Shown here: positions 21,242 through 55,125 of the stretch, one piece after another
Layout: each line of letters starts with the position of its first letter
Position numbering within the stretch: the first letter of the stretch is position 1
NCBI GenBank assembly: GCA_003551305.1
Contig: PUMJ01000050.1
Span: 12,073 to 76,072 of the forward strand
DNA length: 64,000 nucleotides
Source: Candidatus Brocadiaceae bacterium
Lineage (GTDB): Bacteria; Planctomycetota; Brocadiia; SM23-32
Direction of reading: 5' to 3'
Program-made: the position numbers and the translations under genes
Notes under the pieces: model-generated
What the model saw: the letters and a program-made list of their open reading frames with translations, nothing else
The model's database searches: none
Told to the model about the DNA's origin: nothing

Positions 21242-21535
21242 TTGCTATCGTCTCCCGGGGTGATTGCCTTTCGGCGCGTATCAACAGGGTCTCGGCGGGG
21301 TTGAGTCGACGTGCGGCGGATTGCCGAGTGCGTCGCCGTGCACGCCGAACAGAGCATTGCGGTCTCCCGTTCCGGAACCGGTTGCCTTCCGCTATGTCAT
21401 TCCTGAGCCACGCATTGGCGGCAAGAAGGGTCTGCGACCCGGAACCGCCGCGGTGCACGGTCCGCCTGCCAGGGGCGTCAAACCTCCAGAACCCCACGCG
21501 AGGAGACCATGGCACGGGCGCCCGGGGCCTGCGCC

Positions 21536-28299: not shown

Positions 28300-29499
28300 C
28301 TATTGCGCAGCCCAGGAGATCGAGAGCACGTGGACCCCCCGTCCCGACATCTGCCGCACGCACTTGCGCTCCAGAACCCCCGAGCGCACGACGTCGGAGA
28401 CGAGCAACGCAGACTGGCCGGCCTGAACCGCGGCGTCCAGGACCGGCTCGACGTGGCGATCATCCGGCCCGCCGGGCCTCGCCCGGAACAGGTCCCGGCA
28501 GGGCACGCCGAGCAGCCGGGCCACTTGCCGCGCCAGGGGCCGGCAGTCGCTATGCCTGTCAGCCGGCGGGTGCGTTACGAAGTCGAACGTGCCGAGTTCG
28601 GCCCGCTCATCCAGCAGGCGGACGGTGTCGGCGGCCATCTGCAGGCCAAATTCGTCATCAAGCCCCCGTGACCACTTGCCGAACGAACTTCGCTCCGCCT
28701 CGCTTAGCGCGTCCCACTGCCGCGCCGCGAAGGCCCCGAGGGTCACCCGCGGCACGTGGCAGTAGCGTTCATTCTCGGCAAACGAGCCGGAGAACTCCCA
28801 GGCGAGCGTGGACTCGCGGGCGGCTTTCATGGTCTCCCGCAGAGGTTCGACTTCCGGCCGGTAGGGCGTGTAGCTGACCACGACCTTCAGCGCCGCCGCG
28901 TGTTCGCCCCGCGATGGGTCCTGCCGGAACGCCTCGATCTCAGCCTCCAGCGACGAGGCCACCGAGCGCGCCTCGCCCTCGTCGGCATCCGGCAGGGCAA
29001 CCATGAACTCCCCGGGCCCGATGCGCCCGACGGCGTATCCGCCACCCAGCCGGGTGCGCAGAAGGCGCGCAACGTGCTTGACCAGCGCGTCGCCGACCGC
29101 GTAGCCGTACTCGTGGTTGAGCTTGTTCAGGTTCATCAGGGCCACATTCACCAGCCATGCCCGCCGGCCGACGTCGCCCGACTCCATGCGCCACTGGTCA
29201 AGCTCGCAGATAATGCCACTGCGGTTGGGCAGCCCCGTCAGGTCGTCAATCATCCCGTCTCTGTCCTCCAGCAGGCGGCGCGCTCGCCAATGGCCCTGCG
29301 CCGCCAGCACCGAAACGGGTACTGACAGGACGAATCCGCCCCAGATGCCGATGCGCATCAACGGGCCCGCACCGCTCCTGAGGGCGGACAGGGCCATCAA
29401 AAACAGGAATCCGCTGAGCGCCAGCGTAACGAACAATATGCGCCGGCTGGACCGGCGCATCCTTGCGCCCGCGCCGTCCGCCTGCACGGCCACATCCAT
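28300..29499 (-). CDS. Membrane protein: 2 TM + degenerate GGDEF (GPGEF) domain + C-terminal ComF-like phosphoribosyltransferase domain
   Basis: RIGPGEFMVALPD is the GGDEF-core position. C-terminal ALLVSDVVRSGVL is a type I PRTase PRPP-loop-like signature. Start MDV follows GGAGGAGGGAAG. Confidence 0.7.
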   Translation of the reverse strand: MDVAVQADGAGARMRRSSRRILFVTLALSGFLFLMALSALRSGAGPLMRIGIWGGFVLSVPVSVLAAQGHWRARRLLEDRDGMIDDLTGLPNRSGIICELDQWRMESGDVGRRAWLVNVALMNLNKLNHEYGYAVGDALVKHVARLLRTRLGGGYAVGRIGPGEFMVALPDADEGEARSVASSLEAEIEAFRQDPSRGEHAAALKVVVSYTPYRPEVEPLRETMKAARESTLAWEFSGSFAENERYCHVPRVTLGAFAARQWDALSEAERSSFGKWSRGLDDEFGLQMAADTVRLLDERAELGTFDFVTHPPADRHSDCRPLARQVARLLGVPCRDLFRARPGGPDDRHVEPVLDAAVQAGQSALLVSDVVRSGVLERKCVRQMSGRGVHVLSISWAAQ

Positions 29500-30083: not shown

Positions 30084-30092
30084 TGCTATAGT
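30084..30092 (+). promoter_or_regulatory. Extended -10 element (TGcTATAGT) upstream of the membrane protein gene
   Basis: TATAGT at 30087-30092 with an upstream TG. Lies about 60 nt upstream of the candidate GTG start. Confidence 0.3.
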
Positions 30093-30149
30093 GGGTGGTC
30101 TGGCCCGCACGGGTCGGACCGCAATCCGCTCCCTACCCCACTGGCCGTC

Positions 30150-31493
30150 GTGGATTCCATTCAACGTCGCTATCTGAGGTTTTACTGGCCCCTGGCCCTG
30201 ATGGGCGTGGTGTTGCTGACGGGTCGGCTGGCGCAGAACTTCGTGCTCCTGCATTACGAGGCCGGGGTGGAGGAGCTGGCCGTATATGCCCTGGCGCTGG
30301 CCGTGTTCGGGCCCTTCCGCGCCGCGCTGATATTCGTCTCCCAGATGACCAACGTGCTGGTGCGCGGGCCGAAGTCCTTCCGGCACAGCCTGCGGTTCGT
30401 GACCGGCATTTCGCTGGTGCTGACCCTTCCCATAGCGCTGCTGGCCTGGACCCCGCTGGGCCCGATGCTGCTGCCCTTCATCTACGACGTGCCGCCGGCA
30501 CGCATAGCGCGCATAGTGCTTTACATGCGGTTTTTCACGCCGCTGATCCTGCTGGAAGGGCTCAGTCGCTTCGGGGAAGGGCTGCTGGTGCAGGCGCACC
30601 GCACGGCAACCGTCACGGTGATGCACGCGCTCGAACTGGCGCTCCTGGCGGGGGTGCTGGCAACCGGTATGTGGCACGGCTGGGACCCCGTGCTCACCAT
30701 CAGCCTGTCGCTCATTCTGCCGCGCGTCCTCTACCTGGTCCTGGCCGCCGGGCTGGCGGCTCTCTTCCATCACCACCGGCATCCGGAAGAGGACAGCGCA
30801 CTGAGCCTGCGGGAGATGCTGGCCTTCTTTCTGCCCATGGCCGGCACGTCCATCCTTTTCTCCCTGACGCGGCCCATCATCTACGGATTCGTCACAGCGC
30901 TGAACCCCACGGGTGACCCTGCGCTCCCCAACGTGGACGTCATCGTTGCCGTCGTCAGCCTGGCCTCCACCTTCGAGGCCATCTTCCTGGGCGCCGTCAA
31001 CCAGTTCCGCCACCTGATGGTGACGTTCGGGCGGGACGAGCTGGCGCAACTGCGGCGCTTCATGGTGCGGACGACGGCCGTTATCACGGGCCTGATGCTG
31101 GTGGTGGTGGCCACCCCCCTGGCCGAACTGTTCTTCCGCTACCTGCAGGGCGCCACGGGGGAGACGCTCCGCATGGTGCGGCAGGCCGTCTGGGTCACGC
31201 TCGTGGTGCCGGGGGCCATCTGCTGGCGCAACTACTACCACGGGCAGGTCATGGTGCATCGCCGCACGGGCGGCATGCTGGTGGGCGCCCTTATGCGCGA
31301 CCTGTCGGTGCTGGTCGGCGCGGCGGCGCTCTCGGCCGTCGGCCTCTACAACCACGTCACGGCCACGGCCATGCTCCCCCTGGCCTTCAGTTCCGAGGCC
31401 GCTACGGTCATGCTCCTCACCCGCTCCTGGCTGCGGGCCGCCGGCCAGCCCGGCCGGGACCGCCAGCCGGAGGCCGAGCCCGCCCCCGATTGA
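30150..31493 (+). CDS. Multi-pass membrane protein, MOP-superfamily (MATE/Wzx-like flippase) candidate
   Basis: About 12 TM helices. Start assigned to GTG 30150 after the -10 element; the frame is open upstream, so the start is uncertain. Confidence 0.45.
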   Translation: MDSIQRRYLRFYWPLALMGVVLLTGRLAQNFVLLHYEAGVEELAVYALALAVFGPFRAALIFVSQMTNVLVRGPKSFRHSLRFVTGISLVLTLPIALLAWTPLGPMLLPFIYDVPPARIARIVLYMRFFTPLILLEGLSRFGEGLLVQAHRTATVTVMHALELALLAGVLATGMWHGWDPVLTISLSLILPRVLYLVLAAGLAALFHHHRHPEEDSALSLREMLAFFLPMAGTSILFSLTRPIIYGFVTALNPTGDPALPNVDVIVAVVSLASTFEAIFLGAVNQFRHLMVTFGRDELAQLRRFMVRTTAVITGLMLVVVATPLAELFFRYLQGATGETLRMVRQAVWVTLVVPGAICWRNYYHGQVMVHRRTGGMLVGALMRDLSVLVGAAALSAVGLYNHVTATAMLPLAFSSEAATVMLLTRSWLRAAGQPGRDRQPEAEPAPD

Positions 31494-34515: not shown

Positions 34516-37179
34516 ATGACAAGCCGGCAGAGAGACGGCGCCGGGGCGCCGATGCAACTGCGATGTGAATACCTGACCGACCCCCTGGGCATCGAGGAGC
34601 GCGTGCCGCGCCTGTCGTGGGTTGTCAACGACGAGCGCCGGGGCGCCATCCAGACCGCTTACCAGATCCTGGTGGCCGCCTCCCGGGAGTCCCTGGCCGC
34701 CGGAGACGCCGACGTTTGGGACAGTGGCCGGGTCGAGTCCGACCGCTGTGCCCACGTCGAGTACGACGGACCGGTGCGCGAGTCCCGCCGCCGCTACTGG
34801 TGGAAGGTGCGCACCTGGGACGCCGAAGGCGCCGCTTCCCCCTGGAGCGAGCCCGCCTGGTGGGAAATGGGGCTGCTGGAGCCGGCCGACTGGACGGCCG
34901 AGTGGATAGGGATGCGGGACGAGCGCCGCCCCCAGCCTGCCACTTACCTGCGGCGCGAATTCCGCCTGGAGCGCCCCGTGCGGCGCGCGCGGCTCTATGC
35001 CACCGCGCTCGGCCTCTACCTGCTTCGCCTGAACGGCCGGGCGGTCAGCGATGACGTCCTGGCGCCGGGCTGGACCGACTACCGTAAGAGAGTGATGTAC
35101 CAGACCTATGACGTGACGGACATGCTGCAGGACGGCGCGAACGCGCTGGGTGCCGTGCTGGGAGAAGGCTGGTACTGCGGCCAGATAGGGTGGGGCCAGG
35201 GGGAGGACCAGTTCGGTGAGCATCCCCCGCGCCTGCTGGCGCAACTGGAGGTGGAGTTTGAGGACGGCGTCACCCAGCGGGTGACCACCGACGGCACATG
35301 GCGCTGCGGCGAAGGCCCCATCCGCCGCTCCCAGTTCTACGACGGGGAGCGCTACGACGCACGCCGCGAGATGCCCGGCTGGGACCGGGCGGGTTTCGAC
35401 GACGCCGACTGGCAGCCGGCCGAGACCTTCGAGGACGCCGGCGCCGAGCGCAACGCCCGGCAGCACCCGCCCATCCGCGTCACCGAGGAACTGCGCCCTG
35501 TGGGCGTAGAGGAGATTGAGCCGGGCAAGTACGTCTTCGACATGGGTCAGAACCTGGTCGGCTTCTGCCGCCTGCGCGTGAGGGGGCCGGCCGGCACGGA
35601 GGTGACGCTGCGCCACGCCGAGGTGCTCAACGACGACGGCACCCTCTACACGGAGAACCTGCGCAAGGCGAAGGCCACCGACACCTACGTGCTGCGGGGC
35701 GGGGAGGAGGAGACTTTCACGCCGCACTTCACCTACCACGGGTTCCGCTACGTCGAGGTGACCGGCTACCCGGGCACGCCCGACGAGGACGACCTGACAG
35801 GCCTGGTTGTGCACAACGACTGCGCGCCGGCCGGCCGCATCGAGACGTCTTCCGAGATGGTCAACCGCCTGCAGCGCAACATCGTGTGGGGGCAGCGCGG
35901 CAACATGCACAGCGTGCTGACCGACTGCCCGCAGCGCGACGAGCGGCTGGGCTGGATGGGTGATGCGCAGATGTTCGCGCCCACGGCCTGCTACAACATG
36001 GACATGGCGGCGATGCTGACGAAGTTCGCCCGCGACATGATGGACGAGCAGACCCCCGAGGGCGCCTTCCCCGACGTCTGCCCCTACCTGAGCCCGAAGG
36101 GCCTGCTGCCCCCGGCCGGCGCCCCCGCCTGGATGGACGCCGGCGTCATCGTGCCCTGGACCGTTTACCAGTTCTACGGCGACCGGCGCATCCTGGAGCG
36201 GCACTTCGAGAGCATGTGCCGCTACGTGGACTACGTCAGCGGCGAGAACCCGGAGGGCATCTGGGAGAACGCGCGCGGCAACGACTACGGCGACTGGGTG
36301 CCGGCGGGCGAGCAGACGGACAAGACGATGTTCGCCACGCTGAACCACTTCTACTCCACCACGCTCACCGCGCGGACGGCCCGGGTGCTGGGCCGCGAGG
36401 AGGCCGGCGAGAAATACGAGGCCCGCGCGCGGGCGGTGCGCGACGCGTTCAACGAGCGCTACCTGCGCGAGGACGGAACCTACGAGAACGCCACCCAGAC
36501 CGTCTGCGCCCTGGCCCTTGCGTGGGGCGTTGCGCCGGAGGAGCACCGCGCGTCCGTGGCCGACGACCTGGTGGCCAACATCGAGGGGCGGGGCGGGCAC
36601 CTGTCCACCGGTTTCGGCGGCACGCAATGGCTGCTGCCGGCCCTGTGCGGGACGGGGCACGAGGACGTGGCCGTGCGCCTCCTTCTGCAGCGCGAGCAGC
36701 CCTCCTGGGGCTACATGATCGAGAAGGACGCCACCACCATCTGGGAACTGTGGGACAGCGACACCGCCGGGCCGAGCATGAACTCGCGCAACCACTTCGC
36801 CTACGGCTCGGTGGGACAGTGGCTGTTCGGCTGGCTGGCCGGCATCCGCACCGAGGCCGACGACTGGGCGCAGTTCAGCGTCACGCCGTGCCCCGCCCCT
36901 GCCGGGGGCGAACTGACCCGCGTTAGGGCGACCTATGCCTCCATCCGGGGCGAGATAGTGACCGAGTGGCAGGTGAACGACGAGGGACTGGAAGTGACGG
37001 TGCGTGTGCCGGCCAACAGCCGGGCGACGCTCAGTCTGCCCGCGTCCGACCCCGAAGCGGTTACCGAGAGCGGCCGGCCAGCGGCCGACGCGGAGGGCAT
37101 AAGCGCCGTTCGAGCAGAAGACGGGCGCGTCATATATGGTCTATCCGCAGGCACTTACATGTTCACTGTGCGGGAGTAA
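34516..37179 (+). CDS. Alpha-L-rhamnosidase (GH78)
   Basis: GH78 N-terminal motif (LRCEYLTDPLGIEERVPRLSWV) and an (alpha/alpha)6 catalytic domain; 887 aa. Confidence 0.9.
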   Translation: MTSRQRDGAGAPMQLRCEYLTDPLGIEERVPRLSWVVNDERRGAIQTAYQILVAASRESLAAGDADVWDSGRVESDRCAHVEYDGPVRESRRRYWWKVRTWDAEGAASPWSEPAWWEMGLLEPADWTAEWIGMRDERRPQPATYLRREFRLERPVRRARLYATALGLYLLRLNGRAVSDDVLAPGWTDYRKRVMYQTYDVTDMLQDGANALGAVLGEGWYCGQIGWGQGEDQFGEHPPRLLAQLEVEFEDGVTQRVTTDGTWRCGEGPIRRSQFYDGERYDARREMPGWDRAGFDDADWQPAETFEDAGAERNARQHPPIRVTEELRPVGVEEIEPGKYVFDMGQNLVGFCRLRVRGPAGTEVTLRHAEVLNDDGTLYTENLRKAKATDTYVLRGGEEETFTPHFTYHGFRYVEVTGYPGTPDEDDLTGLVVHNDCAPAGRIETSSEMVNRLQRNIVWGQRGNMHSVLTDCPQRDERLGWMGDAQMFAPTACYNMDMAAMLTKFARDMMDEQTPEGAFPDVCPYLSPKGLLPPAGAPAWMDAGVIVPWTVYQFYGDRRILERHFESMCRYVDYVSGENPEGIWENARGNDYGDWVPAGEQTDKTMFATLNHFYSTTLTARTARVLGREEAGEKYEARARAVRDAFNERYLREDGTYENATQTVCALALAWGVAPEEHRASVADDLVANIEGRGGHLSTGFGGTQWLLPALCGTGHEDVAVRLLLQREQPSWGYMIEKDATTIWELWDSDTAGPSMNSRNHFAYGSVGQWLFGWLAGIRTEADDWAQFSVTPCPAPAGGELTRVRATYASIRGEIVTEWQVNDEGLEVTVRVPANSRATLSLPASDPEAVTESGRPAADAEGISAVRAEDGRVIYGLSAGTYMFTVRE

Positions 37180-40864: not shown

Positions 40865-41905
40865 TCAGAGGTCAGCGGGTTGCCTCTTGCGGGCGGAGCG
40901 TTCCATGGCGAGGATGACGCGTGTGACCTCCCGGCCGTCCTCGAACCCGACCAGGGGCTGGTCGCCGGAGGCGACGCAGTCCACGAAGTGGCGGATGCTC
41001 TCGGTGGCGAAGCCGACGCGCCGGCCGTGCACGGTGGGGGAGATGAATGTGTCCGGGCAGTGTGGCCCGTCCTGTGCGATGTGCACCAGCCTGTGCGGGC
41101 TGCCGTCGAAGTGGAAGGCCCCCCGCTCACCGACGACCTCCAGCTTGAAGTCCACCAGGCTCGGGCTCGCCTCGGGCAGTATCCAGCACGTCTCCAGCAG
41201 CGCCCGCGCGCCGCGGCGGAACTCGATGATGGACATGTAGTAGTCGGGCGTCTTGATGTCCATCCCCGCCAGCACGCGGCTGTCACTGACGGTGTAAACC
41301 CGGCTTGCCTGGTCGTCCAGCAGCCAGAAGAGCGTGTCCAGGCAATGGCTGCCCAGGAACCAGTTGACGCTTGAGCGCCCGGCCCAGGGCAGCATCTGTG
41401 TGGGCACGAACAGGGTATCCGACAGGCGGCAGTAAACCATCCTCACCTCCCCGAGCAGGCCGGCCGCGACGTCCCGACGTATCTGCACCACGCCGGGGCT
41501 CCAGCGGTTGTGGAAGTCCACCATGAAGGGGACGGGGTTGCGGCTCAGGGCCTCGCCGATGCGGTCGCAGTCTTCCAGGGTGGTGGCCAGGGGCTTTTCA
41601 ACCAGGACGGCTTTGCCGGCTTCAACGGCGGCCAGGACGATGTCGGCGTGGGTGAAATCGGGGGTGACCACGGAGACGGCGTCCACGTCGTCCCGCCGCA
41701 TCATCTCACGGTAGTCGCGGTGTGTGGCCACGGTTCCGGTCCGCGCCGCGGCCTCCTGCAGGCGGTCGGCGTTCATGTCGCACAGGGCGGTGAGGCGGGC
41801 GCGCGGGTGGTCCAGGTAGGTCTCCAGGTGCACTTGCCCCCAGGTGCCGAGTCCGATGACGCCGAAACGTGCCCTCTGCATTGCGGCCCTCCCTTGCCGA
41901 AGCAC
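40865..41905 (-). CDS. Gfo/Idh/MocA family oxidoreductase
   Basis: N-terminal Rossmann fold (RFGVIGLGTWGQVH) plus the GFO_IDH_MocA C-terminal domain. Confidence 0.85.
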   Translation of the reverse strand: MLRQGRAAMQRARFGVIGLGTWGQVHLETYLDHPRARLTALCDMNADRLQEAAARTGTVATHRDYREMMRRDDVDAVSVVTPDFTHADIVLAAVEAGKAVLVEKPLATTLEDCDRIGEALSRNPVPFMVDFHNRWSPGVVQIRRDVAAGLLGEVRMVYCRLSDTLFVPTQMLPWAGRSSVNWFLGSHCLDTLFWLLDDQASRVYTVSDSRVLAGMDIKTPDYYMSIIEFRRGARALLETCWILPEASPSLVDFKLEVVGERGAFHFDGSPHRLVHIAQDGPHCPDTFISPTVHGRRVGFATESIRHFVDCVASGDQPLVGFEDGREVTRVILAMERSARKRQPADL

Positions 41906-41908
41906 AGG

Positions 41909-43156
41909 TCAGTAGGCGGCCCAGGCGGCCACCTGCAGATGGGCGCCGGCGGCGGAGAGCTTCTTTACGCACCGGCGCTCCAGGATTCCGGAGCTGATGA
42001 CGTCGGAGATGAGCAGGGCGCCTTCGCCCTTGTCAATGACGGCGTCCACGGCCGGTTCGATGCTCCTGCTCTCGGGACCGCTGCTGTCGGCGCGCATGAC
42101 GTCGCGGTAAGGGACGCCCAGTTGCCTGGCGACGGCCTCGGCGAGCTGACGGGCCGGATACGTGCGGCCGCCGCCGGCCCCGCCGGGCGCCGGCACGGCG
42201 GTGACGAAGTCCACCCAGTTGGTCTCGGCTTTCTCGTCCAGCAGTTTCACGATGTCGTTGCACATCGTCTCGGTCACGACATCGCTCAGCTCGCGTTTCC
42301 AGAGCTTGAAAGCCTCCTGCTGGGGTTTGCTCAGGCTCTGCCAGCGGTGCGCGGCGAAGGCGCCGAGGGTCACCCGCGGCACGTGGTAGTAGGTCTCTGT
42401 CTCGTCCCCGGCGGTCTCGGGCAGCTTGCCGTGGGCGGTGGCCTCCTTGGCGCTGGTAACGGTCTCGTGCAGCGATGCGCGTTCCGGCACGTAGTCGGCG
42501 ACGCTGACGCGGGCCTTCAGCGAATGGACCTCGCCGCGCTCGCCCAGGCTCAGCCGATAGTCGGAGACGACCTGCTTGAGGGTATCTGCGAGGGACTCGG
42601 CCTCCGAGACGCTGGCGTTCGGCAGGATGACCAGGAACTCGTCCCCCCCTAAGCGCCCGACAATGTAATCCTCTGAGGCGGCCTCGCGGATGAGGCCGGC
42701 CAGGTCCTGCAGGACGGCGTCGCCAACCATCTGGCCGTACTCGTAGTTGACGCGGTTGAGGTTCTCCAGGTCAACGTCCACCAGTCGGATTCTCTTGCCG
42801 AACTCCTGGGGGCCAAGCTCGTAGCGCTCCAGCGCCGCCACCAGCCCTTTGCGGTTGGGCAGGCCCGTCAGGGTGTCGGTCACGCCGAGTTCGGAGGACT
42901 TGCGCCGGGAGTAGCGGCGCGCCTGCCAGTAGGTGCTCACCGCGTAGGCCGCCACCACCAGCGCCCAGACGGGCATCGCCCACAGCAACGCCCTGGGCCA
43001 GATACCCAGGGTGTCCGCGCGACCCAGGCCGACCGCTGCCGTCAGCATCATGCCGAACAGCACCAGCAGCGTGAGGGCCGCCCGGCGGGAGTGGCGATGG
43101 ATGCTGCGCGTTATGACCTCTTCTTCGGTGTCCGACTCATGCCACATCAGACCCAT
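41909..43156 (-). CDS. Membrane protein: 2 TM + GGDEF domain (canonical GGDEF) + C-terminal ComF-like phosphoribosyltransferase domain; paralog of 28300-29499
   Basis: RLGGDEFLVILP, shared linker motif YHVPRVTLGAFAA, C-terminal ALLISDVISSGIL. Start MGLMW follows a GGAGG RBS. Separated from the downstream oxidoreductase gene by 3 nt. Confidence 0.75.
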   Translation of the reverse strand: MGLMWHESDTEEEVITRSIHRHSRRAALTLLVLFGMMLTAAVGLGRADTLGIWPRALLWAMPVWALVVAAYAVSTYWQARRYSRRKSSELGVTDTLTGLPNRKGLVAALERYELGPQEFGKRIRLVDVDLENLNRVNYEYGQMVGDAVLQDLAGLIREAASEDYIVGRLGGDEFLVILPNASVSEAESLADTLKQVVSDYRLSLGERGEVHSLKARVSVADYVPERASLHETVTSAKEATAHGKLPETAGDETETYYHVPRVTLGAFAAHRWQSLSKPQQEAFKLWKRELSDVVTETMCNDIVKLLDEKAETNWVDFVTAVPAPGGAGGGRTYPARQLAEAVARQLGVPYRDVMRADSSGPESRSIEPAVDAVIDKGEGALLISDVISSGILERRCVKKLSAAGAHLQVAAWAAY

Positions 43157-44760: not shown

Positions 44761-47397
44761 TCAGGCGGTCTGCGCCGCGGCGAGGGCCCGGCAGATGGCC
44801 CGGCCCGCCCGTAGACCTTCGGCCACGGCCCTCACGGCGGTGGTGCCGCCGTTGACCACGTCCCCTGCGGCGTAGACGCCCGGCCGTGACGTCTGCATCG
44901 TTTCGGTCTCGACGGCAACCAGCCCTCGCTCGTTCAGCTCGACGCCCGGCAGCTCGGCCAGCAGTCCGGACGGCCTCTGCCCGATGGCCTCGACGGCCAT
45001 CTCCACGGCTATGACCGCTTCGCTGTCGGGCATCTCCTCCGGGCGGCGCCGGCCCGAGTCGTCGGGCTCTCCCAGCTCCGTTCGCACGGTGTGCACGCCG
45101 CTCAGCCGGCCGTCAGAGACGCGGTAGCCGGTGGGCTGGGTGAGCAGGACGAAGTGCACCCCTTCCCGCAGGGCTGCGTCCCGCTCCTCCGGCCAGGCGG
45201 GCATCTCAGTGAAAGAGCGTCGGTAGATGAGGTAAACGTCCCGCGCGCCGCGGCGGCGCGCCACCAGGGCGGCATCCATCGCCGTGTTGCCGCCGCCCAG
45301 GACGGCCACGCGGTCCGGCATCGTCGCCTCGGGCGCATCCTTCATGCGCCGCAGGAAGGGCAGCGCCGCCTCGACTCCCTCGATGTTCCGCGCCTCGTCC
45401 CCGAGTGTCACGGGTTCCGTCAGGCCCAGGGCCAGCACCACGGCGTCGTGGCCGGCCAGCAGTTCATCCAGGGAGACGTCCTGCCCCAGGGCCGTCTCGA
45501 ATCGCCACTGCAGCCGGTCTTCGGGGGCCTCGCCCAGGCGGGCCTGCAGTTCGGCTTCCACATCTTCGTCCTGGAGCCGCTCGGAGGGGATGGTTCGGCG
45601 CGCCAGGCCGCCGGGTTCCTCGGCGGCCTCGATGATGGTGACCCGGTGGCCGGCCTCCAGTAGTTGAAGGGCGCAGGCCATGCCCGCCGGGCCGGCGCCC
45701 ACCACGGCAATGCGGCCGTCCGTCGGCTCTTGCGGCAACTGCAGTCCGGCCCAGCCCTGCTTGCGGGCCTCTCGGCAGACGTAGAGCTGGATCTCGCGAA
45801 TGGGCACCGGATCGCCCGTCATCGTGCCCTCGATGCACTCCCCCTCGCACTGGACCTCGACGGGGCAGATGTAGGCGCAGAGTTCGGGCAACGGGTTGCA
45901 GCGCCGCAGCACGTCGTAGGCTTCCCGCAGTCGGCCATCGGCGACGGCCCGCACGAAGGCCGGCACGTCCACGGTGGCCGGGCAGCCCTGCTGGCAGGTG
46001 GGGGCCGCGCAGTCCCGGCAGCGCTCGGCCTGCCGGCGGACGGTGTCCGGCGCCAGGCGACGCCCCTGGCGGAACAGCGGGCCATAGACCTCCTTGTCGC
46101 GGACGACGCAGCCGGCCGGCTGGCCGTCCCGCATCATCTGGGTGCAGCAACTACAGGTGATGCAGCTCTTCAGCGGCTCCATCCGGCCGTTCTGCAGGAT
46201 GTCACGGGGGAAGTCCGGATAGGCGAAGCCCTGCCGGCCCAGGCCGATCATCGTGGCCCAGCCCTCCCGCACGACGCCCGCCGCCACGTGGGGCATGAAC
46301 TGACGCAGGTAGGAGTAGCCGGACCCCAGGGTGACCAGGTCCGGATATGCCTGCTGGATGCGGCGGGCGATGCCGATGATGCGACCGACGCCGACCAACG
46401 GGTGCTCCTCGGGCGGGGTGAAGCCGGCGATCGGGTAGTCGTAGGGGCGGTTGTAGTGCGGCTGCCAGTAGGGATTACCGGCGGTCACGTTCAGCAGCGG
46501 CGCCCCCTGCCTGCGCAGCATGCCGACCAGCTCCAGCGGCTCGGCCAGGTCCACTGCACTGGGGTCCTGCCGATCCACCCCCCAGCCGTAGGGGTGGGGG
46601 ATGGCATCGTAGGTGTTGAGCCGGCTTGTGGGGATGAGTTCAGGGAACTCGGCGGCCACCTTCTCATGCACCTCCCGCAGCAGGCGTGTGCGGTCGGCCA
46701 GTTCCGGGCCGCCGTAGCGACTGTCGGGGCGGGTGAAGGACTCCAGCAGTTCCGCGATCAGGTAGCCGTGGCATGCCTTCACGTCCACGCCGTCGAAGCC
46801 GGCCCGCCGGGCCAGTTCGGCCGTGCGCAGGTAGTCGTCCTGGAGCCGGTCGAGCTCCTCGTCCGTGATCAGGGGGTAGTCTTCGGTCAGGCCGTGCTTG
46901 GGTGCCAGGATGGGCGAGTGGTGGGCGATGATGGGCGCAGGCTCGCCCTCGGGGCGGCTGTAGCGGCCGGAGTGCGTCATCTGCAGGATGAGCAGCGGCT
47001 CGTGCTCGGGCCCCATGGTGTCGCGAGCGGCCCGGCGGACCTCCTCCAGCAGGCGGCTTATCTCGCCGAGGGTCTTTTCGGTGAGCTGCATCTGGCCGGG
47101 GTTGGCGCGGCCCTCGGGCACGACGGCGCAGGCCTCGAACCAGAGCAGCCCCGCCCCGCCGGACGCGAAGCGCAGGTAGCGGCGGCGCGTCAGATCCCCG
47201 GGGGCGCCCGCCGGGGTGCAGTCGCAGCCCTCCATGGGCTGTATGGCCAGGCGGTTGGGGGCAAGCCTGTCGCCTATCCGCACCGGCTCGCCCAGCACGT
47301 CGAAGTCATCGCTGACGGGCAGTTCGACGCCCAGCGCGTCCAGCTTGCTCAGCAGGTCATCCAGGGTCTTGTAGTGGAATCGCTCGAAGTCGCTCAT
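44761..47397 (-). CDS. Fused flavin oxidoreductase: OYE-like NADH:flavin oxidoreductase N-domain + GltD-like FAD/NAD(P)-binding Fe-S domain
   Basis: OYE TIM-barrel region in the N-terminal half. Cys clusters (CITCSCC, CRDC..C..C) and GAGPAG dinucleotide motifs in the C-terminal half. Start taken at MSDFERF (47397). Confidence 0.75.
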   Translation of the reverse strand: MSDFERFHYKTLDDLLSKLDALGVELPVSDDFDVLGEPVRIGDRLAPNRLAIQPMEGCDCTPAGAPGDLTRRRYLRFASGGAGLLWFEACAVVPEGRANPGQMQLTEKTLGEISRLLEEVRRAARDTMGPEHEPLLILQMTHSGRYSRPEGEPAPIIAHHSPILAPKHGLTEDYPLITDEELDRLQDDYLRTAELARRAGFDGVDVKACHGYLIAELLESFTRPDSRYGGPELADRTRLLREVHEKVAAEFPELIPTSRLNTYDAIPHPYGWGVDRQDPSAVDLAEPLELVGMLRRQGAPLLNVTAGNPYWQPHYNRPYDYPIAGFTPPEEHPLVGVGRIIGIARRIQQAYPDLVTLGSGYSYLRQFMPHVAAGVVREGWATMIGLGRQGFAYPDFPRDILQNGRMEPLKSCITCSCCTQMMRDGQPAGCVVRDKEVYGPLFRQGRRLAPDTVRRQAERCRDCAAPTCQQGCPATVDVPAFVRAVADGRLREAYDVLRRCNPLPELCAYICPVEVQCEGECIEGTMTGDPVPIREIQLYVCREARKQGWAGLQLPQEPTDGRIAVVGAGPAGMACALQLLEAGHRVTIIEAAEEPGGLARRTIPSERLQDEDVEAELQARLGEAPEDRLQWRFETALGQDVSLDELLAGHDAVVLALGLTEPVTLGDEARNIEGVEAALPFLRRMKDAPEATMPDRVAVLGGGNTAMDAALVARRRGARDVYLIYRRSFTEMPAWPEERDAALREGVHFVLLTQPTGYRVSDGRLSGVHTVRTELGEPDDSGRRRPEEMPDSEAVIAVEMAVEAIGQRPSGLLAELPGVELNERGLVAVETETMQTSRPGVYAAGDVVNGGTTAVRAVAEGLRAGRAICRALAAAQTA

Positions 47398-47729
47398 GGT
47401 CTGTCCTGGCAGCGGATTGGGATAGTCAGGGGGGAACGGGCCAGGCAAAGCTCCGGAACAGTCATTCTACCCGCGCACGCCCCGGTGTTCAATAGGGTCG
47501 CCCGGGCCCGCGCCCGGCGACGGGCCGGCACACGTCCCGGCAGCAAACGCTCTCATCCGGCCGCCCCTCGGGCGTTGCGTGTTGGGCAACGCGGCAGGCG
47601 GCGGCGGATTGACACGCGGATGCCCTTGAAAGGTTGCGGGAGCCGTTGCCCTTTCCGAGGGGCGTCGCGGCCGGTAGAATGCCCTCGTTTCAGGCCACCT
47701 GCCGGCGAGAGCCCTCAAGAGGACCGGAC

Positions 47730-49141: not shown

Positions 49142-50470
49142 TCAGACGATGTCAGCGGCCGGGGTTGTCTTGCGCCCGCTGATATCTTTCAGCAGGGTGG
49201 GTCCGTCCTCCACAAGGGGGTCGGGGCGGCCCCAGCGGGCCTGCATCTGCTCCAGCCACCGGTCCAGGCGGCGTTCCAACTCGGCGGCCACCTCCGGCTC
49301 GGTGTGTATCAAGTTGCCCTGCTCCTCGGGGTCCCGGGCCAGGTTGTAGAGTTCCTTCGGCGCGCTGCCGTGCCAGTTGTGGCGGTAGGTGTCGGAGGCC
49401 GCGCGGATGAACTTCCACTCCCGCGTGCGCACGCCGCGCTTGACCTGCCAGGTGGCCTCCCCCAGGAAGAGGCTCTCGTGGGGGCCGTCTTCCGGCGCGG
49501 GCCCTATGGCCAGCAGGTCGGCGCCTTCCATCGGCTCGGGCACGGGCAGGCCGGCGCGCCTCAGCAGGGTCACCGGCAGGTCGGTCATCTGCGTCAGGCC
49601 TTTCACGCGCTCGCCGGCTCGCTCCGCGCCGGGCAGCTTCATGATGAGCGGCACGTGCAGGTTGGCGTCGTAGAGGCCGTGGTGGTCGAAGGCGCCCTCG
49701 TGCTCGGTCAACACCTCGCCGTGGTCGGAGAAGGCCACGATGAGCGTCTCGTCGTAGAGGCCGCGCTCTTTGAGCGCCTCGAACAGGCGCCAGAGTTGCT
49801 CGCCGTTGTAGGCGATCTCGGCGTCGTACTGGGCCACGACGTAATCGGCGTCGGCAATATCGTCGTCCACCCAGCCAACACCGGGGCTGCCCTGGGCCCG
49901 GCAGCGGCGCATCGAACTGTGCCGGGGGTCGGTCGGGTCGCCCTCGTAGTAGAGTCCGTTATAGGGGCCGGGGGGGAAGTACGGCGTGTGGGGGTCCCAG
50001 TAGTGCAGGAACACCAGGAAAGGGTCGGCGGCGGACAGTTCGTCCATCAGATCGGTGGCGGCGCCGGTGACCAGTTCGCCGTTTCTTTTCTCTCGCTTCT
50101 TTTTGTCGCGGCCCATGTCGGGCCAGGAGTATTGCTCCCACCCGCGGCGGAAGAACTCGGCGTGCCCCTGCAGATTGTCCAGGGCGCAGGTCTGGTAGCC
50201 GGCCGCGGCGAAAAGCTCCGGCAGCCACGGGGCCTCCTCGGGCAGCCCGCGCGGGGGTATGACGCCCGCGATGGCGTGCCCGTAGTCGGGCAGACCGGTG
50301 AACAGCGAGGTGAAGGATGGGTCGGTGGGGATGGAGGGGGCGAAGAAGTTCTCGAACAGCACGCCGTCCTCGGCCAGCGCCTGAAGGGCCGGGCTGGTCG
50401 CCCTCTCGTAGCCGTAGCAGTCCAGGTGGTCGGCACGCAGCGTGTCAACCGCTATAAGAATGATGTTCAT
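49142..50470 (-). CDS. Sulfatase-like hydrolase/transferase (alkaline phosphatase superfamily; no C/S-x-P-x-R formylglycine motif)
   Basis: IAVDTLRADHL N-terminus; the position of the FGly motif reads SIPTD. Confidence 0.7.
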   Translation of the reverse strand: MNIILIAVDTLRADHLDCYGYERATSPALQALAEDGVLFENFFAPSIPTDPSFTSLFTGLPDYGHAIAGVIPPRGLPEEAPWLPELFAAAGYQTCALDNLQGHAEFFRRGWEQYSWPDMGRDKKKREKRNGELVTGAATDLMDELSAADPFLVFLHYWDPHTPYFPPGPYNGLYYEGDPTDPRHSSMRRCRAQGSPGVGWVDDDIADADYVVAQYDAEIAYNGEQLWRLFEALKERGLYDETLIVAFSDHGEVLTEHEGAFDHHGLYDANLHVPLIMKLPGAERAGERVKGLTQMTDLPVTLLRRAGLPVPEPMEGADLLAIGPAPEDGPHESLFLGEATWQVKRGVRTREWKFIRAASDTYRHNWHGSAPKELYNLARDPEEQGNLIHTEPEVAAELERRLDRWLEQMQARWGRPDPLVEDGPTLLKDISGRKTTPAADIV

Positions 50471-51877: not shown

Positions 51878-53611
51878 TCAGGGGTGCGAGCCATGCGCCT
51901 CCACTCTCTCGATGCCGAAGCCGGCGCGGATGTAGTCGTTGACGGCCCTGGCGGTGTATTGCGGCCGCCAGTTGGCCCTGGACTGCTCGCGCACCTCGGC
52001 CACGAACGCCTCGAAAGTCGGCTCCCCGCCCACCGCCGCATTGTAACGGGCGACGGTGCGCTCGGGGTCGGCGAAGCTGACCTCTTGCGCCACGGCTCCC
52101 CTCTCCCCGGCCCGCTCGACCCAGCCGTCCAGCCCGTAGCTCTGGTCGCCGATCCTGAACCACCGCTCCGGCTCGCCGACGCCGTGGTATATGTTCTGCG
52201 CCAGGCGGTAGGGCGCCAGGTTGCCGGCGGCGTGCACCAGGGCCGCTTCAGTGGCGGTGGACTGAACCACGTTCCGCGAGATCAGGATGCTCTGCTGGCG
52301 GGCGCCCCCGGGCAACTGTACCATGGCGGAGGTGCTGTGCAGTCCGTGAATGAGGTTGCCGTGGATGCGCACGTTGCGGGTCGAGCCGCCCCCGACGCGG
52401 ATGCCGTAGACGTTGCCGACCTCCGGGTTGTCCTGGTGGATGATGCAGTTACCGGCCAGCACCCCTCCGTCCCAATCACTGATGCCGATGTACCAGCCCA
52501 GGGTGCGGCCGGTGGGCCGGGTGCGCCCGACGCCGGCCAGGACGTTGTTGATGATGGTGACGTTCTGAAAGCGGAGCGGTTCGTCCGTGTTGCCGCCGAT
52601 GCCGATGCCGATCTCGCCCTCGACGTAGAGGTTGTCGTCTATCAGCAGGTCGCTCGAGGCGCCGGGATTGTCGGCGCGCCACTTGTTGCCCATGCTGGCC
52701 GCGCGCAGGAACATGTTGCCGCGGAAGACGACGTTCCGGCACCGGCTGAAGTAGGTATTATGGTTGAACATCGTGGCGCGGCCTTCGCTGCGATTACGTC
52801 CTCCGTCGCCCTGGATGCGCCAGCCGTTATGGTCGAAGATGTTCTCCTCCAGCAGCATTCCGTCCAGCCCGGCGGCAAAGAACCCGTTGGAGTGGCCGGT
52901 GACCGAGTAGGTGTTCAGCACCAGGTTACGCCGCACAACCGCGCCCCGGAAACTGCCCCGTCGGGTCTGCATGACCAGGGACCCGAACTCGATGCGGCAG
53001 TCTTCCACAAGGATGTGACGGCCGGCGCCGTCGGGGCCTACAAGGAAATGGAAACCGCTGTTGCCGGCGTAGGACTCGAACTCAGGGCTCTCCGTGTCGC
53101 GGGTGTGCGCGTGGAAGTGCAGCCCGACGATGGCCATGTTCTCGAACGAGCCGTAGAGGAAGATGGCCCCGCCCACGCGGCCCGTCTTCAACAGGGGGCG
53201 GGCCTCATCCGGCCCGTAGGTAGCGAGCAAGAAGCGCTCGGACGGGGAGCGGCCGTCCGGCAGGGAGCGGATCGTCTCGCGCTGATACCATGTGTCGCCG
53301 CGCCGCAGCAGCACCCAGTCCGCAGCGCCGGAACGCGCGTGCTCCAGGGCGGCCTCCACGGTGCGGAAGGGGCGGACCTGCCCGGCGGGCAGGAAGGGGT
53401 CCGCACCCACGGCGGCGTCCCCCGGTGAGTGGGGGCGGCCCATCTCGTCGTCACCGTGGCTGCTGCTGACGTAGATGAGGCGGGTGTCCCGCGACGGGGT
53501 GAACACCGTCCATCCTTCAGCGTCCCTTGCCAGACCTTCGGCCCCCTCGGCAGGGGCGCACAGCACACCGGCGACCAAAAGCGCCGCGAGAGCGCAACCG
53601 GGTATCCTCAT
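51878..53611 (-). CDS. Secreted right-handed parallel beta-helix repeat protein (pectate-lyase-fold)
   Basis: Signal peptide; repeated N-x-V/I-x-x-N beta-helix rungs. Confidence 0.65.
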   Translation of the reverse strand: MRIPGCALAALLVAGVLCAPAEGAEGLARDAEGWTVFTPSRDTRLIYVSSSHGDDEMGRPHSPGDAAVGADPFLPAGQVRPFRTVEAALEHARSGAADWVLLRRGDTWYQRETIRSLPDGRSPSERFLLATYGPDEARPLLKTGRVGGAIFLYGSFENMAIVGLHFHAHTRDTESPEFESYAGNSGFHFLVGPDGAGRHILVEDCRIEFGSLVMQTRRGSFRGAVVRRNLVLNTYSVTGHSNGFFAAGLDGMLLEENIFDHNGWRIQGDGGRNRSEGRATMFNHNTYFSRCRNVVFRGNMFLRAASMGNKWRADNPGASSDLLIDDNLYVEGEIGIGIGGNTDEPLRFQNVTIINNVLAGVGRTRPTGRTLGWYIGISDWDGGVLAGNCIIHQDNPEVGNVYGIRVGGGSTRNVRIHGNLIHGLHSTSAMVQLPGGARQQSILISRNVVQSTATEAALVHAAGNLAPYRLAQNIYHGVGEPERWFRIGDQSYGLDGWVERAGERGAVAQEVSFADPERTVARYNAAVGGEPTFEAFVAEVREQSRANWRPQYTARAVNDYIRAGFGIERVEAHGSHP

Positions 53612-53802
53612 GTCCTCATCCTCCGTTCAGCAGGGCGCAACGCGGTCGGGGCCCTCCCTGGCACCGACCCGGAGGGCATTGTACGGGCGCCGGGACGGCC
53701 GGTCAACGCGCCGTGGGGGGGAGGGCAGGCCCCTCGCCTTCGGTTTGCAGGTATGGCTCCGCGGTGTATCATGGTCACTTACCCCCTCTTTCCGGAGAGA
53801 CC

Positions 53803-55125
53803 ATGAGACTCAACTGTGCCCGCAGTAGACTGACCCTCTGCGCGGCGGCGCTGATGGCCCTCGTGCTGGCTGCGCCGGTGCGCGCCGACCGCGCCTCCAC
53901 GCAGGAACGGGACCGCGCCGTGCGCCGGCTGATGCGGGAGCACCTGGAGACGAACCTGATGCTCTGGTGGCTGGAGCACAGCCCGGATTGGCAATATGGC
54001 GGGTTCCTGCTGGAGCTGGACCGTTACGGCCGCCCGCGCCGCGGCCGCAAGATGCTGGTCACGCAGACGCGGCAGATATGGTCCTTCGCCCGCCTGTGGC
54101 GGGCCGGCTACCGCGACCCCCGCCTGCGGGAAGCCGCCGAGCGGGGGCTGGACTTCCTGGAAGAGCACTTCTGGGACGAGGAGCACGAGGGCTGGTTCCT
54201 GCGCACGGACCGGGCGGGCGAGCCGACCCAGACCCAGAAGAGCACCTACGCCCACGCGTTCGTGATCTTTGCCGGGGCCGAGTATTACCGCGCCTTCGGC
54301 GACGAGCGGGGGCTGCAGGTGGCCGAGCGGACTTTCCGAGTGCTGGAGGAGCATGCGGCCGACCCGGACCACGTGGGCTACTTCAACGAGTTCCGCCGGG
54401 ACTGGAGCCCGCCGCGGTGGGGGGGCCGCACCAAGAGCATGAACACCCAGCTCCACCTGATGGAGGCTCTGGCGGAACTCTACCGCGCCACCGGCGATGA
54501 GGTCCACGCACAGAGGTTGCGCGAGATACTGGATGCCATGGTCGAGAACGCCTACCTGCCCGAGCACAGGGTCTGCCTTGAATACTTCGGGCCGGACTGG
54601 ACGCCCGTGACCGAAGGTCGGGCCGGGTGGCGCAACCGCCACACCTCCTACGGGCACAATGTGGAATTCGCCTGGCTGATGCAGGAGGCGGTGGAGGTGC
54701 TCGACCTGCCGCCGGAGCCCTATCGGGAGATCGGCCTGGCCCTGGTGGACCGGGCGCTGGAGAGCGCCTGGGAGCCCATGACCGGCGCCCTTTACAACGC
54801 CGGTCCCCTGGAGGGCAGGGCCACAGACCACCAGGTGAGCTGGTGGCCGCAGGCGGAGAGCCTGGTGGCGCTGGACTGGGCCTGGCGTACCACGGGCGAG
54901 GAGCGCTACCTGACAGCCCTGGAACGCCAGGCACGATGGGTGGTGGACCACCAGGCTGACGGCGTCTACGGCGGCTGGTGGGATACGCTCGCCCCGGACG
55001 GCACCGTTATCGGGCCGCGGAAAGCCCACGAATGGCACGGCGCCTACCACGAGGTGCGCGGCGTGCTGAAAGTCGCCGAGGACGTCTGGAACGACGGCGA
55101 GAACCGGGCCGAGAGCCGACCCTGA
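53803..55125 (+). CDS. N-acylglucosamine 2-epimerase (AGE) family protein, secreted
   Basis: Signal peptide MRLNCARSRLTLCAAALMALVLAAPVRA, then an AGE-family (alpha/alpha)6 barrel. Confidence 0.75.
   Translation: MRLNCARSRLTLCAAALMALVLAAPVRADRASTQERDRAVRRLMREHLETNLMLWWLEHSPDWQYGGFLLELDRYGRPRRGRKMLVTQTRQIWSFARLWRAGYRDPRLREAAERGLDFLEEHFWDEEHEGWFLRTDRAGEPTQTQKSTYAHAFVIFAGAEYYRAFGDERGLQVAERTFRVLEEHAADPDHVGYFNEFRRDWSPPRWGGRTKSMNTQLHLMEALAELYRATGDEVHAQRLREILDAMVENAYLPEHRVCLEYFGPDWTPVTEGRAGWRNRHTSYGHNVEFAWLMQEAVEVLDLPPEPYREIGLALVDRALESAWEPMTGALYNAGPLEGRATDHQVSWWPQAESLVALDWAWRTTGEERYLTALERQARWVVDHQADGVYGGWWDTLAPDGTVIGPRKAHEWHGAYHEVRGVLKVAEDVWNDGENRAESRP

What the first reader, a model, noticed from the sequence alone, without database searches (positions are those of the whole stretch)
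41909..43156. Second GGDEF-PRTase paralog (canonical GGDEF), leading a Gfo/Idh/MocA oxidoreductase gene
It has the same domain order as 28300-29499. The linker motif is shared (YHVPRVTLGAFAA[HR].W..LS), as is the C-terminal signature (ALLISDVISSGIL). This copy retains an intact GGDEF, so it is probably an active diguanylate cyclase. It sits 3 nt upstream of the Gfo/Idh/MocA oxidoreductase gene. Two paralogs 13 kb apart, one catalytic and one degenerate, recall the cyclase/receptor pairing seen in other c-di-GMP systems. Here the added domain is new.
Basis: partly seen in the sequence, partly recalled or inferred. Interest (0 to 1): 0.65.

Follow-up and report, generated by a model that had tools for sequence, protein, structure and literature searches.

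The report
c-di-GMP cyclase with PRTase-like tail
This gene encodes a membrane-anchored enzyme of the bacterial c-di-GMP signalling family that carries an unannotated C-terminal domain with the fold of a phosphoribosyltransferase (closest to the competence protein ComFC); the fusion is real, rare and confined to one group of uncultured Planctomycetota, but its function is still only inferred.

The parts
41909..43156 (-). Copy 1 CDS, 415 aa: TM hairpin, GGDEF domain, ComF-like PRT-fold domain
   Evidence: ORF; GGAGG upstream of the ATG; identical to P0091; Pfam GGDEF
42935..43081 (-). Two hydrophobic helices (residues 26-44 and 56-74) joined by a loop of about 10 residues. Basic residues lie on both cytoplasmic sides. 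There is no periplasmic sensor domain.
   Evidence: Kyte-Doolittle scan; AF2 helices 2-45 and 52-90
42428..42880 (-). GGDEF domain (residues 93-243)
   Evidence: Pfam PF00990 E 8.2e-24; PDB diguanylate cyclases E 1e-13 to 1e-9; Foldseek
42635..42649 (-). GGDEF motif (residues 170-174), preceded by R168. No RxxD I-site upstream (the sequence there is ASEDY).
   Evidence: Translation; family table
41912..42388 (-). ComF-like type I PRTase-fold domain (residues 257-415). The 'linker' motif YHVPRVTLGAFAA is its first beta-strand.
41981..42016 (-). Degenerate PRPP loop LLISDVISSGIL (residues 381-392). D385 is conserved in the whole family.
   Evidence: hhalign column mapping onto VLLVDDVvTTGxT; ComFC 155-LLDDIITTGTTL-166 (PMC9005727); conservation
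40865..41881 (-). Gfo/Idh/MocA oxidoreductase, 338 aa from the ATG with a GGGAGG Shine-Dalgarno (the longest ORF starts at GTG 41905). Probably co-transcribed with copy 1.
   Evidence: Pfam; sequence; 338-aa call in a public assembly; below every NCBIfam cut-off; synteny
28300..29499 (-). Copy 2 CDS, 399 aa, same architecture. It carries GPGEF (29005-29019), the D327 equivalent is Ala, and the PRPP-loop remnant is LLVSDVVRSGVL (28372-28407).

Best explanation
Copy 1 is an inner-membrane-anchored diguanylate cyclase with no periplasmic sensor. Its C-terminal ComF-like pseudo-PRTase domain most likely serves as the cytoplasmic regulatory module.

Shown:
- Architecture: TM hairpin, then a short juxtamembrane helix, then GGDEF, then a PRT-fold domain.
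- The GGDEF motif and the residues for metal binding (D129) and guanine binding (N137, D146) are intact.
- The PRT-fold domain is closest to ComFC, lacks the zinc finger, and has a degenerate PRPP loop.
- This domain occurs only fused to GGDEF and is the most conserved part of the family.

Inferred:
- The PRT-like domain no longer catalyses phosphoribosyl transfer.
- It still uses the remnant of the ribose-5-phosphate site (D385, SSG) and family-invariant R351 and R394 to bind a phosphorylated small molecule. Candidates are a nucleotide, PRPP or (p)ppGpp, or a sugar phosphate linked to the neighbouring Gfo/Idh/MocA dehydrogenase.
- It may also dimerise, as most type I PRTases and ComFC do.
- Either way, it would set whether the two GGDEF domains of a dimer can meet productively to make c-di-GMP.

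Copy 2 is a catalytically dead paralog of the same design. It retains the guanine-binding residues and probably acts as a nucleotide-binding regulator, not as a cyclase.
For: - Paralogy and architecture.
- Profile chain: 53 of 61 weaker profile hits carry Pfam Pribosyltran and 10 carry the ComF zinc ribbon DZR_2. hhalign probability is 99.85%.
- Degenerate loop. D157 to S, T164 to I and T165 to L relative to ComFC. T165A abolishes nucleotide binding in ComFC (PMC9005727). Across the wider family the loop is LLVxD followed by variable residues.
- Exclusive fusion: all 20 full-length representatives with E<=1e-17 have the module at the C-terminus of a protein of about 400 aa, and 18 of 20 hit GGDEF.
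- Conservation: the PRT-like domain is more conserved than GGDEF in every between-clade comparison (34-58% against 27-47%). D385, R351 and R394 are conserved in all four clades.
- No other sensor: the periplasmic loop is about 10 residues.
- Precedents: PurR and PyrR use the PRT fold for regulation, and ComFC binds PRPP, AMP and ADP with no known catalysis (PMC9005727).
- Likely activity of copy 1: D327, N335 and D344 are reported as the essential residues (PMC7288161) and all three are present. RLGGDEFL is invariant in about 55 of 60 copy-1-type sequences.
Against: - No ligand, dimer or activity has been observed. The full-length AF2 model gives no confident inter-domain arrangement (pTM 0.43).
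- The T165 equivalent, which is needed for nucleotide binding in ComFC, is Leu or Val here. Canonical nucleotide binding may therefore be lost as well.
- The PRPP loop beyond D385 is not conserved across the wider family. This argues against one common phosphoribosyl ligand.
- Regulatory domains of cyclases are usually N-terminal to GGDEF. A C-terminal position is more typical of an output domain such as EAL.
- The K332 equivalent is Asn, and no equivalent of R446 is evident. Copy 1 could therefore be a poor or inactive cyclase.
- The Gfo partner is missing in L004, L029 and L033 and beside all divergent members. Any metabolic link through Gfo is not obligatory.
Confidence: 0.45

Rival explanations
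1. The roles are reversed. The GGDEF domain is the input: it binds GTP or another guanine nucleotide at the A-site. The PRT-like domain is the output, controlling a partner or an unknown reaction. The analogy is degenerate-GGDEF/EAL proteins in which GTP binding to the dead GGDEF activates the C-terminal domain. I recall Caulobacter PdeA/CC3396 as the example from memory; it was not checked here.
For: The guanine-binding N137 and D146 are conserved in all clades, including those whose GGDEF motif and metal-binding Asp are lost: copy 2 and all six clade C members. The C-terminal position is typical of output domains. The PRT-like domain is the more conserved half.
Against: In the copy-1 orthogroup the catalytic motif RLGGDEF, D129 and R168 are strictly conserved, which points to real catalysis there. 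No candidate output activity or conserved partner gene was found for the divergent clades.
Confidence: 0.2
2. One reading: copy 1 (active cyclase) and copy 2 (degenerate) form a dedicated cyclase/receptor pair. Copy 2 would sense the c-di-GMP made by copy 1, or would heterodimerise with copy 1.
For: One intact and one degenerate paralog share the same architecture in one genome. Active and degenerate forms recur across the family. Shared TM and PRT-like domains could allow heterodimers (inference only).
Against: Copy 2 has no RxxD I-site: GGGY occupies that position. Copy-2-type proteins are found in only two clusters, P0007 and P0144, against more than 60 copy-1-type clusters. Most carriers of copy 1 therefore appear to lack copy 2, although this was not tested genome by genome. 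The genes are 13 kb apart and their neighbours are unrelated. The context of the only other copy-2-type gene differs again. In an NJ tree copy 2 branches outside the whole copy-1/P0008/P0148 group.
Confidence: 0.1
3. The C-terminal domain is a catalytically active, divergent phosphoribosyltransferase. It would make or modify a nucleotide, coupled to c-di-GMP synthesis.
For: It has a type I PRTase fold with the second acidic residue D385 and an S-S-G phosphate-loop remnant. PRTase domains in other nucleotide-centred systems have been proposed to make nucleotides (PMC5512222).
Against: The first acidic residue of the DD pair is Ser, and both Thr residues after the Gly are hydrophobic (mapping). 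The loop is essentially unconserved across the family. Pfam Pribosyltran does not reach threshold, and no PDB sequence match was found.
Confidence: 0.05
4. A ComFC-like role in DNA uptake or ssDNA handling at the membrane, placed under c-di-GMP control.
For: The closest structure is ComFC, a membrane-associated ssDNA-binding protein. ComFB and ComFC have been connected to c-di-GMP-dependent motility control in B. subtilis (bioRxiv 10.1101/2025.07.11.664319). A dprA gene lies in the same window.
Against: There is no zinc finger, which ComFC needs in vivo. No competence genes are adjacent, and dprA is 31 kb away. The conserved neighbours are a sugar dehydrogenase and housekeeping genes.
Confidence: 0.05

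Closest known systems
ComFC / ComF-GntX family (H. pylori ComFC, PDB 7P0H)
   Different: There is no 4-Cys zinc finger. The PRPP loop is LLISDVISSGIL where ComFC has LLDDIITTGTTL, including loss of the Thr whose mutation abolishes nucleotide binding in ComFC. The domain is fused to TM and GGDEF instead of standing alone. It is not in a competence context. Sequence identity is about 10%.
Regulatory pseudo-PRTases: B. subtilis PurR (PRPP- and ppGpp-binding) and PyrR
   Different: PurR and PyrR keep a canonical PRPP loop and regulate DNA or RNA binding. Here the partner is a GGDEF domain, and no ligand has been identified.
Canonical diguanylate cyclases (PleD, WspR, DgcZ, SiaD, T. maritima tDGC)
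   Same: GGDEF fold and motif. Equivalents of PleD R300, D327, N335, D344, R366 and E370/E371 are present.
   Different: The K332 equivalent is Asn. No clear R446 equivalent exists. There is no RxxD inhibitory site. There is no N-terminal sensor or receiver domain. A C-terminal PRT-like domain is present.
Proteins with a degenerate GGDEF used as a nucleotide sensor or receptor (PdeA/CC3396, PelD and PopA types; recalled from memory, not checked here)
   Same: Copy 2 and clade C members have lost their catalytic residues but keep the fold and the guanine-contacting Asn and Asp.
   Different: There is no EAL domain, and no RxxD I-site of the kind PelD and PopA use to bind c-di-GMP.

Membership tests
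GGDEF diguanylate cyclase (active) | GG[DE]EF motif with the preceding Arg (PleD R366) | tested here: met
   Copy 1 has GRLGGDEF, residues 167-174. Copy 2 has GRIGPGEF, so the motif is not met there.
GGDEF diguanylate cyclase (active) | Metal-binding Asp (PleD D327) and guanine-binding Asn and Asp (N335, D344), reported as essential (PMC7288161) | tested here: met
   Copy 1 has D129, N137 and D146, from the HMMER alignments to solved cyclases and the family table. In copy 2 the D327 equivalent is Ala, while N and D are kept.
GGDEF diguanylate cyclase (active) | Phosphate-contacting side chains K332, K442 and R446 (PleD) | tested here: inconclusive
   The K332 equivalent is Asn, followed by Arg (alignment). 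K237 in the last helix plausibly equals K442 (A-K motif). No Arg lies at the R446 position. Only main-chain contacts are reported for residues 330-332 in PMC7288161. A side-chain contact of K332 is reported in 10.1101/2025.08.22.671821.
GGDEF diguanylate cyclase (active) | c-di-GMP synthesis from GTP | not testable with these tools
   Requires an enzyme assay.
GGDEF with allosteric I-site / c-di-GMP receptor type | RxxD five residues upstream of GGDEF | tested here: not met
   That position reads SEDY in copy 1 and GGGY in copy 2.
Type I phosphoribosyltransferase superfamily | PRT core fold (parallel sheet with flanking helices) | tested here: met
Type I phosphoribosyltransferase superfamily | PRPP loop: four hydrophobic residues, two acidic residues, then x-x-[ST]-[ST]-G-x-[ST] | tested here: not met
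   Copy 1 has LLIS-D-VI-SS-G-IL. The first acidic residue is Ser and the last position is Leu. The loop is variable across the family.
Type I phosphoribosyltransferase superfamily | Pfam PF00156 above its gathering score | tested here: not met
   No hit for copy 1. Copy 2 scores E 0.18, 11.5 bits, against a cut-off of 26.3. Six of 20 family representatives reach E<=0.01.
ComF/GntX (ComFC) family | N-terminal 4-Cys zinc ribbon (DZR_2) | tested here: not met
   There are no Cys pairs in residues 244-316 and no DZR_2 hit.
ComF/GntX (ComFC) family | PRT domain with the ComF-type N-terminal extension | tested here: met
Known anti-phage defence proteins (PADLOC) | Match to a PADLOC model | tested here: not met
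   No hit for copy 1, copy 2 or Gfo at E<=0.01.

The most novel reading that the evidence does not exclude
The ComF-like pseudo-PRTase module is a previously unrecognised sensor domain for a ribose-phosphate metabolite or alarmone (PRPP, a nucleotide or (p)ppGpp). It would be hard-wired to a GGDEF domain, giving Planctomycetota a direct allosteric link between nucleotide or central-carbon status and c-di-GMP synthesis. The catalytically dead paralogs (copy 2, clade C) would act as nucleotide-binding regulators built on the same chassis.
Probability: 0.25. Interest if true: 0.7.

Novelty: new variant of a known kind. Interest (0 to 1): 0.5.

Why it matters
GGDEF proteins are among the most abundant bacterial signalling proteins, and their partner domains indicate what each one responds to. 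This partner domain escapes Pfam, NCBIfam and sequence searches of the PDB. As a result, about 75 database entries are labelled simply 'diguanylate cyclase', and half of each protein goes unexplained. Three observations point to a tight functional coupling between GGDEF and a nucleotide-binding fold: the module is PRT/ComF-like, it is more conserved than the GGDEF domain, and it persists when the cyclase motif decays. If the module senses PRPP, nucleotides or (p)ppGpp, it would be a new route of cross-talk between metabolism and c-di-GMP. It would also be a second example, after ComFC, of a non-catalytic ComF-type PRT domain whose ligand could be identified. Three things limit its importance: the family is small, it is restricted to uncultured Planctomycetota, and no function has been shown.

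Tried and rejected
- Sequence searches of the C-terminal domain against Pfam, NCBIfam and the PDB gave nothing significant. The fold assignment needed a profile chain and a structure prediction.
- A single-sequence search of the 5.8-billion-protein database found only 5 fragments. Two of them looked like stand-alone C-terminal proteins but are split gene calls caused by N runs or frameshifts. I therefore rejected the idea of a free-standing version.
- No riboswitch or other RNA element lies upstream of copy 1: no Rfam hit better than E 0.9. Only one unrelated hit reached a gathering score in the whole window.
- Defence system: no PADLOC hit.
- I-site or receptor role for copy 2: no RxxD.
- A conserved partner gene for the whole family was rejected. 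Neighbours of P0025, P0019, P0008, P0015 and P0144 are all different.
- Gfo substrate assignment failed. The best NCBIfam matches (inositol 2-dehydrogenase, UDP-GlcNAc 3-dehydrogenase) fall far below their cut-offs.
- The afdb50 fold library was unavailable.
It was rerun with the close-family alignment.
- Literature searches for GGDEF with PRTase, Pribosyltran or ComF found no description of the fusion.

Full report
**1. The observation**

The minus strand carries an ORF ending at 41909. A GGAGG lies 7 nt upstream of the ATG. All orthologues start at the same place, and a database protein, P0091, is 100% identical. The ORF can be extended to a GTG at 43396, but nothing supports that start.

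Pfam finds GGDEF in this protein (E 8.2e-24, residues 93-243) and in the 28300-29499 protein (E 5e-17). The only PRTase signal is a sub-threshold hit in the second protein (E 0.18). The two proteins align end to end: 40% identity over 396 columns, E 6e-94. The C-terminal 168 residues alone are 49% identical. YHVPRVTLGAFAAHRW in copy 1 corresponds to CHVPRVTLGAFAARQW in copy 2, and ALLISDVISSGIL corresponds to ALLVSDVVRSGVL. tblastn finds no third copy in the window.

**2. Anatomy of copy 1**

There are two hydrophobic segments, residues 26-44 and 56-74, joined by about 10 residues and flanked by basic residues. The AlphaFold model shows them as a helical hairpin. The second helix runs on to residue 90 and leads straight into the GGDEF domain. 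There is therefore no periplasmic sensor domain.

Alignments to solved cyclases place the key residues as follows:
- D129 at the metal-binding Asp (PleD D327).
- N137 and D146 at the guanine-binding N335 and D344.
- R168 at R366.
- GGDEF at residues 170-174.
- R102 at R300.

D327, N335 and D344 are the residues reported as essential (PMC7288161). Three things deviate from the canonical enzyme:
- The P-loop Lys (K332) is Asn, followed by Arg.
- No Arg lies at the R446 position, although K237 plausibly corresponds to K442.
- There is no RxxD inhibitory site.

In roughly 55 of the 60 copy-1-type sequences, RLGGDEF, the DVD/DID motif and NxxxGxxxGD are invariant. This argues for a working active site. 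I put about 65% on copy 1 being an active cyclase.

Copy 2 has Ala at the D327 position and GPGEF. Its one relative, P0144, has Ser and GPEEF. Copy 2 is catalytically dead but keeps the guanine-contacting Asn and Asp.

**3. The C-terminal domain**

Sequence methods fail on it. There is no Pfam or NCBIfam family for copy 1 and no significant PDB sequence match, even with a profile. Three independent lines show that it is a type I PRTase fold of the ComF kind.

(a) Profile chain. A profile of the domain was searched against 1.84 billion representatives. It finds 21 strong hits, all with the same architecture. It then finds a tail of weaker hits, of which 53 of 61 carry Pfam Pribosyltran and 10 carry the ComF zinc ribbon DZR_2. 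Profile-profile comparison with that tail gives 99.85% probability and aligns LLISDVISSGIL on VLLVDDVvTTGxT. This step is partly circular, because the profile itself selected the tail. The Pfam calls on the tail are independent.

(b) Pfam within the family. Six of 20 family representatives hit Pribosyltran at E<=0.01.

(c) Structure. An AlphaFold model of the 168-residue module is confident (pLDDT 89.8, pTM 0.87).
- All of the Foldseek top 50 are PRTases, and ComFC has the highest query TM-score, 0.60.

It corresponds to the strands that extend the sheet in ComFC.

The module differs from ComFC in two ways. It has no four-Cys zinc finger. In the PRPP loop, ComFC has 155-LLDDIITTGTTL-166 and copy 1 has 381-LLISDVISSGIL-392. 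The first Asp is Ser, and T164 and T165 are Ile and Leu. T165A abolishes nucleotide binding in ComFC (PMC9005727). Across the wider family only LLVxD is kept and the rest of the loop varies freely. Phosphoribosyl transfer is therefore unlikely. 'PRTase' should be read as the name of the fold.

**4. The family**

With a family profile, the 5.8-billion-protein database yields about 75 clusters. Each is annotated at most as 'diguanylate cyclase' or 'GGDEF domain-containing protein', with only PF00990 precomputed. Every member that carries an organism name is a Planctomycetota MAG labelled Brocadiia or Brocadiaceae. The taxonomy of the unnamed metagenomic members was not tested. The closest genome locus is 86-90% identical to the window protein.

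Two apparently free-standing C-terminal proteins, P0001 and P0002, are artefacts of N runs and frameshifts. The module was never seen without GGDEF among strong hits: 18 of 20 hit GGDEF and the other two are fragments.

An NJ tree gives three clades:
- Clade B holds the copy-1 orthogroup, P0008, P0148 and, as the outermost branch, copy 2 with P0144.
- Clade A mostly keeps GGDEF.
- In clade C all six members have degenerate motifs and have lost the metal Asp.

In every between-clade comparison the PRT-like domain is more conserved than the GGDEF domain (34-58% against 27-47% identity). The polar residues conserved in all four groups are N137, D146 and R168 in GGDEF, and R351, D385 and R394 in the PRT-like domain. 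The module is thus the constrained core of the family, and it remains coupled to a guanine-binding GGDEF fold even when catalysis is lost.

**5. The Gfo/Idh/MocA neighbour**

The downstream ORF is a Gfo/Idh/MocA oxidoreductase. No specific NCBIfam model reaches its cut-off: the inositol 2-dehydrogenase model scores 152 bits against 355. The 3-nt gap applies to the longest ORF (GTG 41905). ATG 41881 is preceded by GGGAGG and gives the 338-aa product called in public assemblies and seen in orthologues. The spacing is therefore probably 27 nt.

A Gfo orthologue lies immediately downstream on the same strand in about 18 of 21 copy-1-type loci that have enough downstream sequence:
- 8 of the first 9 loci have it. 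In L005 a URO-D-like gene sits between the two genes, and L004 lacks Gfo.
- 10 further metagenome loci have it, while L029 and L033 lack it.

The gaps range from about 20 to 600 nt. The common context elsewhere is SHMT, copy 1, Gfo, CDP-alcohol phosphatidyltransferase(-), ffh, rpsP, trmD, rplS. In L004, L029 and L033, Gfo is missing from exactly that slot. In the window and in L003 the flanks differ (OYE-GltD fusion, M50 protease, then copy 1, Gfo, Hsp20), yet the pair stayed together. The pair is therefore conserved through at least one rearrangement but is dispensable. Divergent family members and the copy-2-type gene have unrelated neighbours. A functional link with Gfo is possible but unproven.

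**6. Mechanism**

My best reading, at about 0.45 confidence, is this. Copy 1 is a membrane-tethered cyclase whose only candidate regulatory element is the C-terminal pseudo-PRTase. The fold binds ribose-5-phosphate ligands in PurR, PyrR and ComFC without catalysis, and it usually dimerises (PMC9005727). The module probably binds a phosphorylated metabolite or nucleotide, or dimerises, or both. In doing so it would control whether two GGDEF domains can pair productively. The family-invariant D385, R351 and R394 are the obvious candidate binding residues.

The evidence against is real:
- The Thr needed for nucleotide binding in ComFC is absent.
- The loop is not conserved across the family.
- The domain lies C-terminal to GGDEF.
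- The full-length model gives no inter-domain geometry (pTM 0.43).

The main rival, at 0.2, reverses the logic. GGDEF would be a guanine-nucleotide input and the PRT-like domain the output. This fits the dead-GGDEF members better.

There is no I-site, only two copy-2-type clusters exist, and the contexts are unrelated. An active PRTase and a ComFC-like DNA-uptake role get about 0.05 each.

No riboswitch precedes the gene, and there is no match to known defence proteins.

**7. Novelty and score**

Both domains belong to known superfamilies. The combination, and this zinc-finger-less ComF-like subfamily with a degenerate loop, are not annotated in Pfam or NCBIfam. They also do not appear in any paper I could retrieve. 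The only paper found that discusses both domain types treats them separately, in phage polyvalent proteins (PMC5512222).

Recent work gives the cross-talk hypothesis some context but is not evidence for it. (p)ppGpp binds PleD (10.1101/2025.08.22.671821), and ComFB and ComFC are tied to c-di-GMP-dependent motility.

I rate this as a new variant of a known kind, with interest 0.5. It is a clean, verifiable new architecture with a testable ligand-sensing hypothesis. It is confined to uncultured Planctomycetota, and no function has been demonstrated.

Noticed in passing
window 9971-11110 (-): A dprA gene (DNA_processg_A, DprA winged helix and N-terminal HHH domains). DprA is the known partner of ComFC in natural transformation. 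It lies 18 kb from copy 2 and 31 kb from copy 1, and there is no evidence of a link.
   Followed up: no
window 17871-17915 (-): An Rfam Acido-Lenti-1 RNA hit just at its gathering score (37.3 against 37 bits). It lies in the 5' part of the long hflX ORF (16379-18052), upstream of where the HflX domains begin (aa 139). It is probably in the hflX leader.
   Followed up: no
window 25926-27056 (+) and 27100-28215 (-); locus L005 8596-9627: Two URO-D / MtaA-CmuA-like genes sit next to copy 2, one of them directly downstream on the same strand. In L005 a URO-D-like gene lies between the copy-1 orthologue and Gfo. This is a recurrent but unexplained association.
   Followed up: partly
window 29628-31493 (+) and 51878-53611 (-): Two large ORFs with good coding statistics (621 aa, with apparently hydrophobic stretches not analysed further, transcribed divergently from copy 2; and 577 aa). 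The 621-aa ORF has no Pfam or NCBIfam hit. The 577-aa ORF has no Pfam hit and was not scanned against NCBIfam.
   Followed up: no
window 44761-47448 (-): An 895-aa fusion of an OYE-type flavin oxidoreductase with a GltD-like Fe-S/NAD(P) module (small subunit of glutamate synthase). It is conserved upstream of the M50-CBS protease and copy 1 in L003.
   Followed up: no
loci L004, L029, L033 (downstream of the copy-1 orthologue): Gfo is missing from the otherwise conserved slot between the GGDEF-PRT gene and the CDP-alcohol phosphatidyltransferase, ffh and trmD cluster. The partnership is therefore dispensable in some lineages.
   Followed up: yes
family alignments A3/A5 (P0009-P0025): In clades A and C the conserved Arg of DxLTGLxNR (PleD R300) is Trp (LTGLLNW). 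All six clade C members have degenerate GGDEF motifs yet keep the guanine-binding Asn and Asp.
   Followed up: partly
window 19386-23017, 34516-37179, 49142-50470, 53527-55125, 57621-58799: Several polysaccharide-degradation genes: two sulfatases, an alpha-L-rhamnosidase, a GlcNAc 2-epimerase-like protein, a GH100/GDE-like protein and a phosphodiesterase-family protein. This fits my general expectation (not checked here) of a heterotrophic, glycan-degrading planctomycete and not an anammox organism, despite the 'Brocadiia' label of the related MAGs. GC content is 68%.
   Followed up: no
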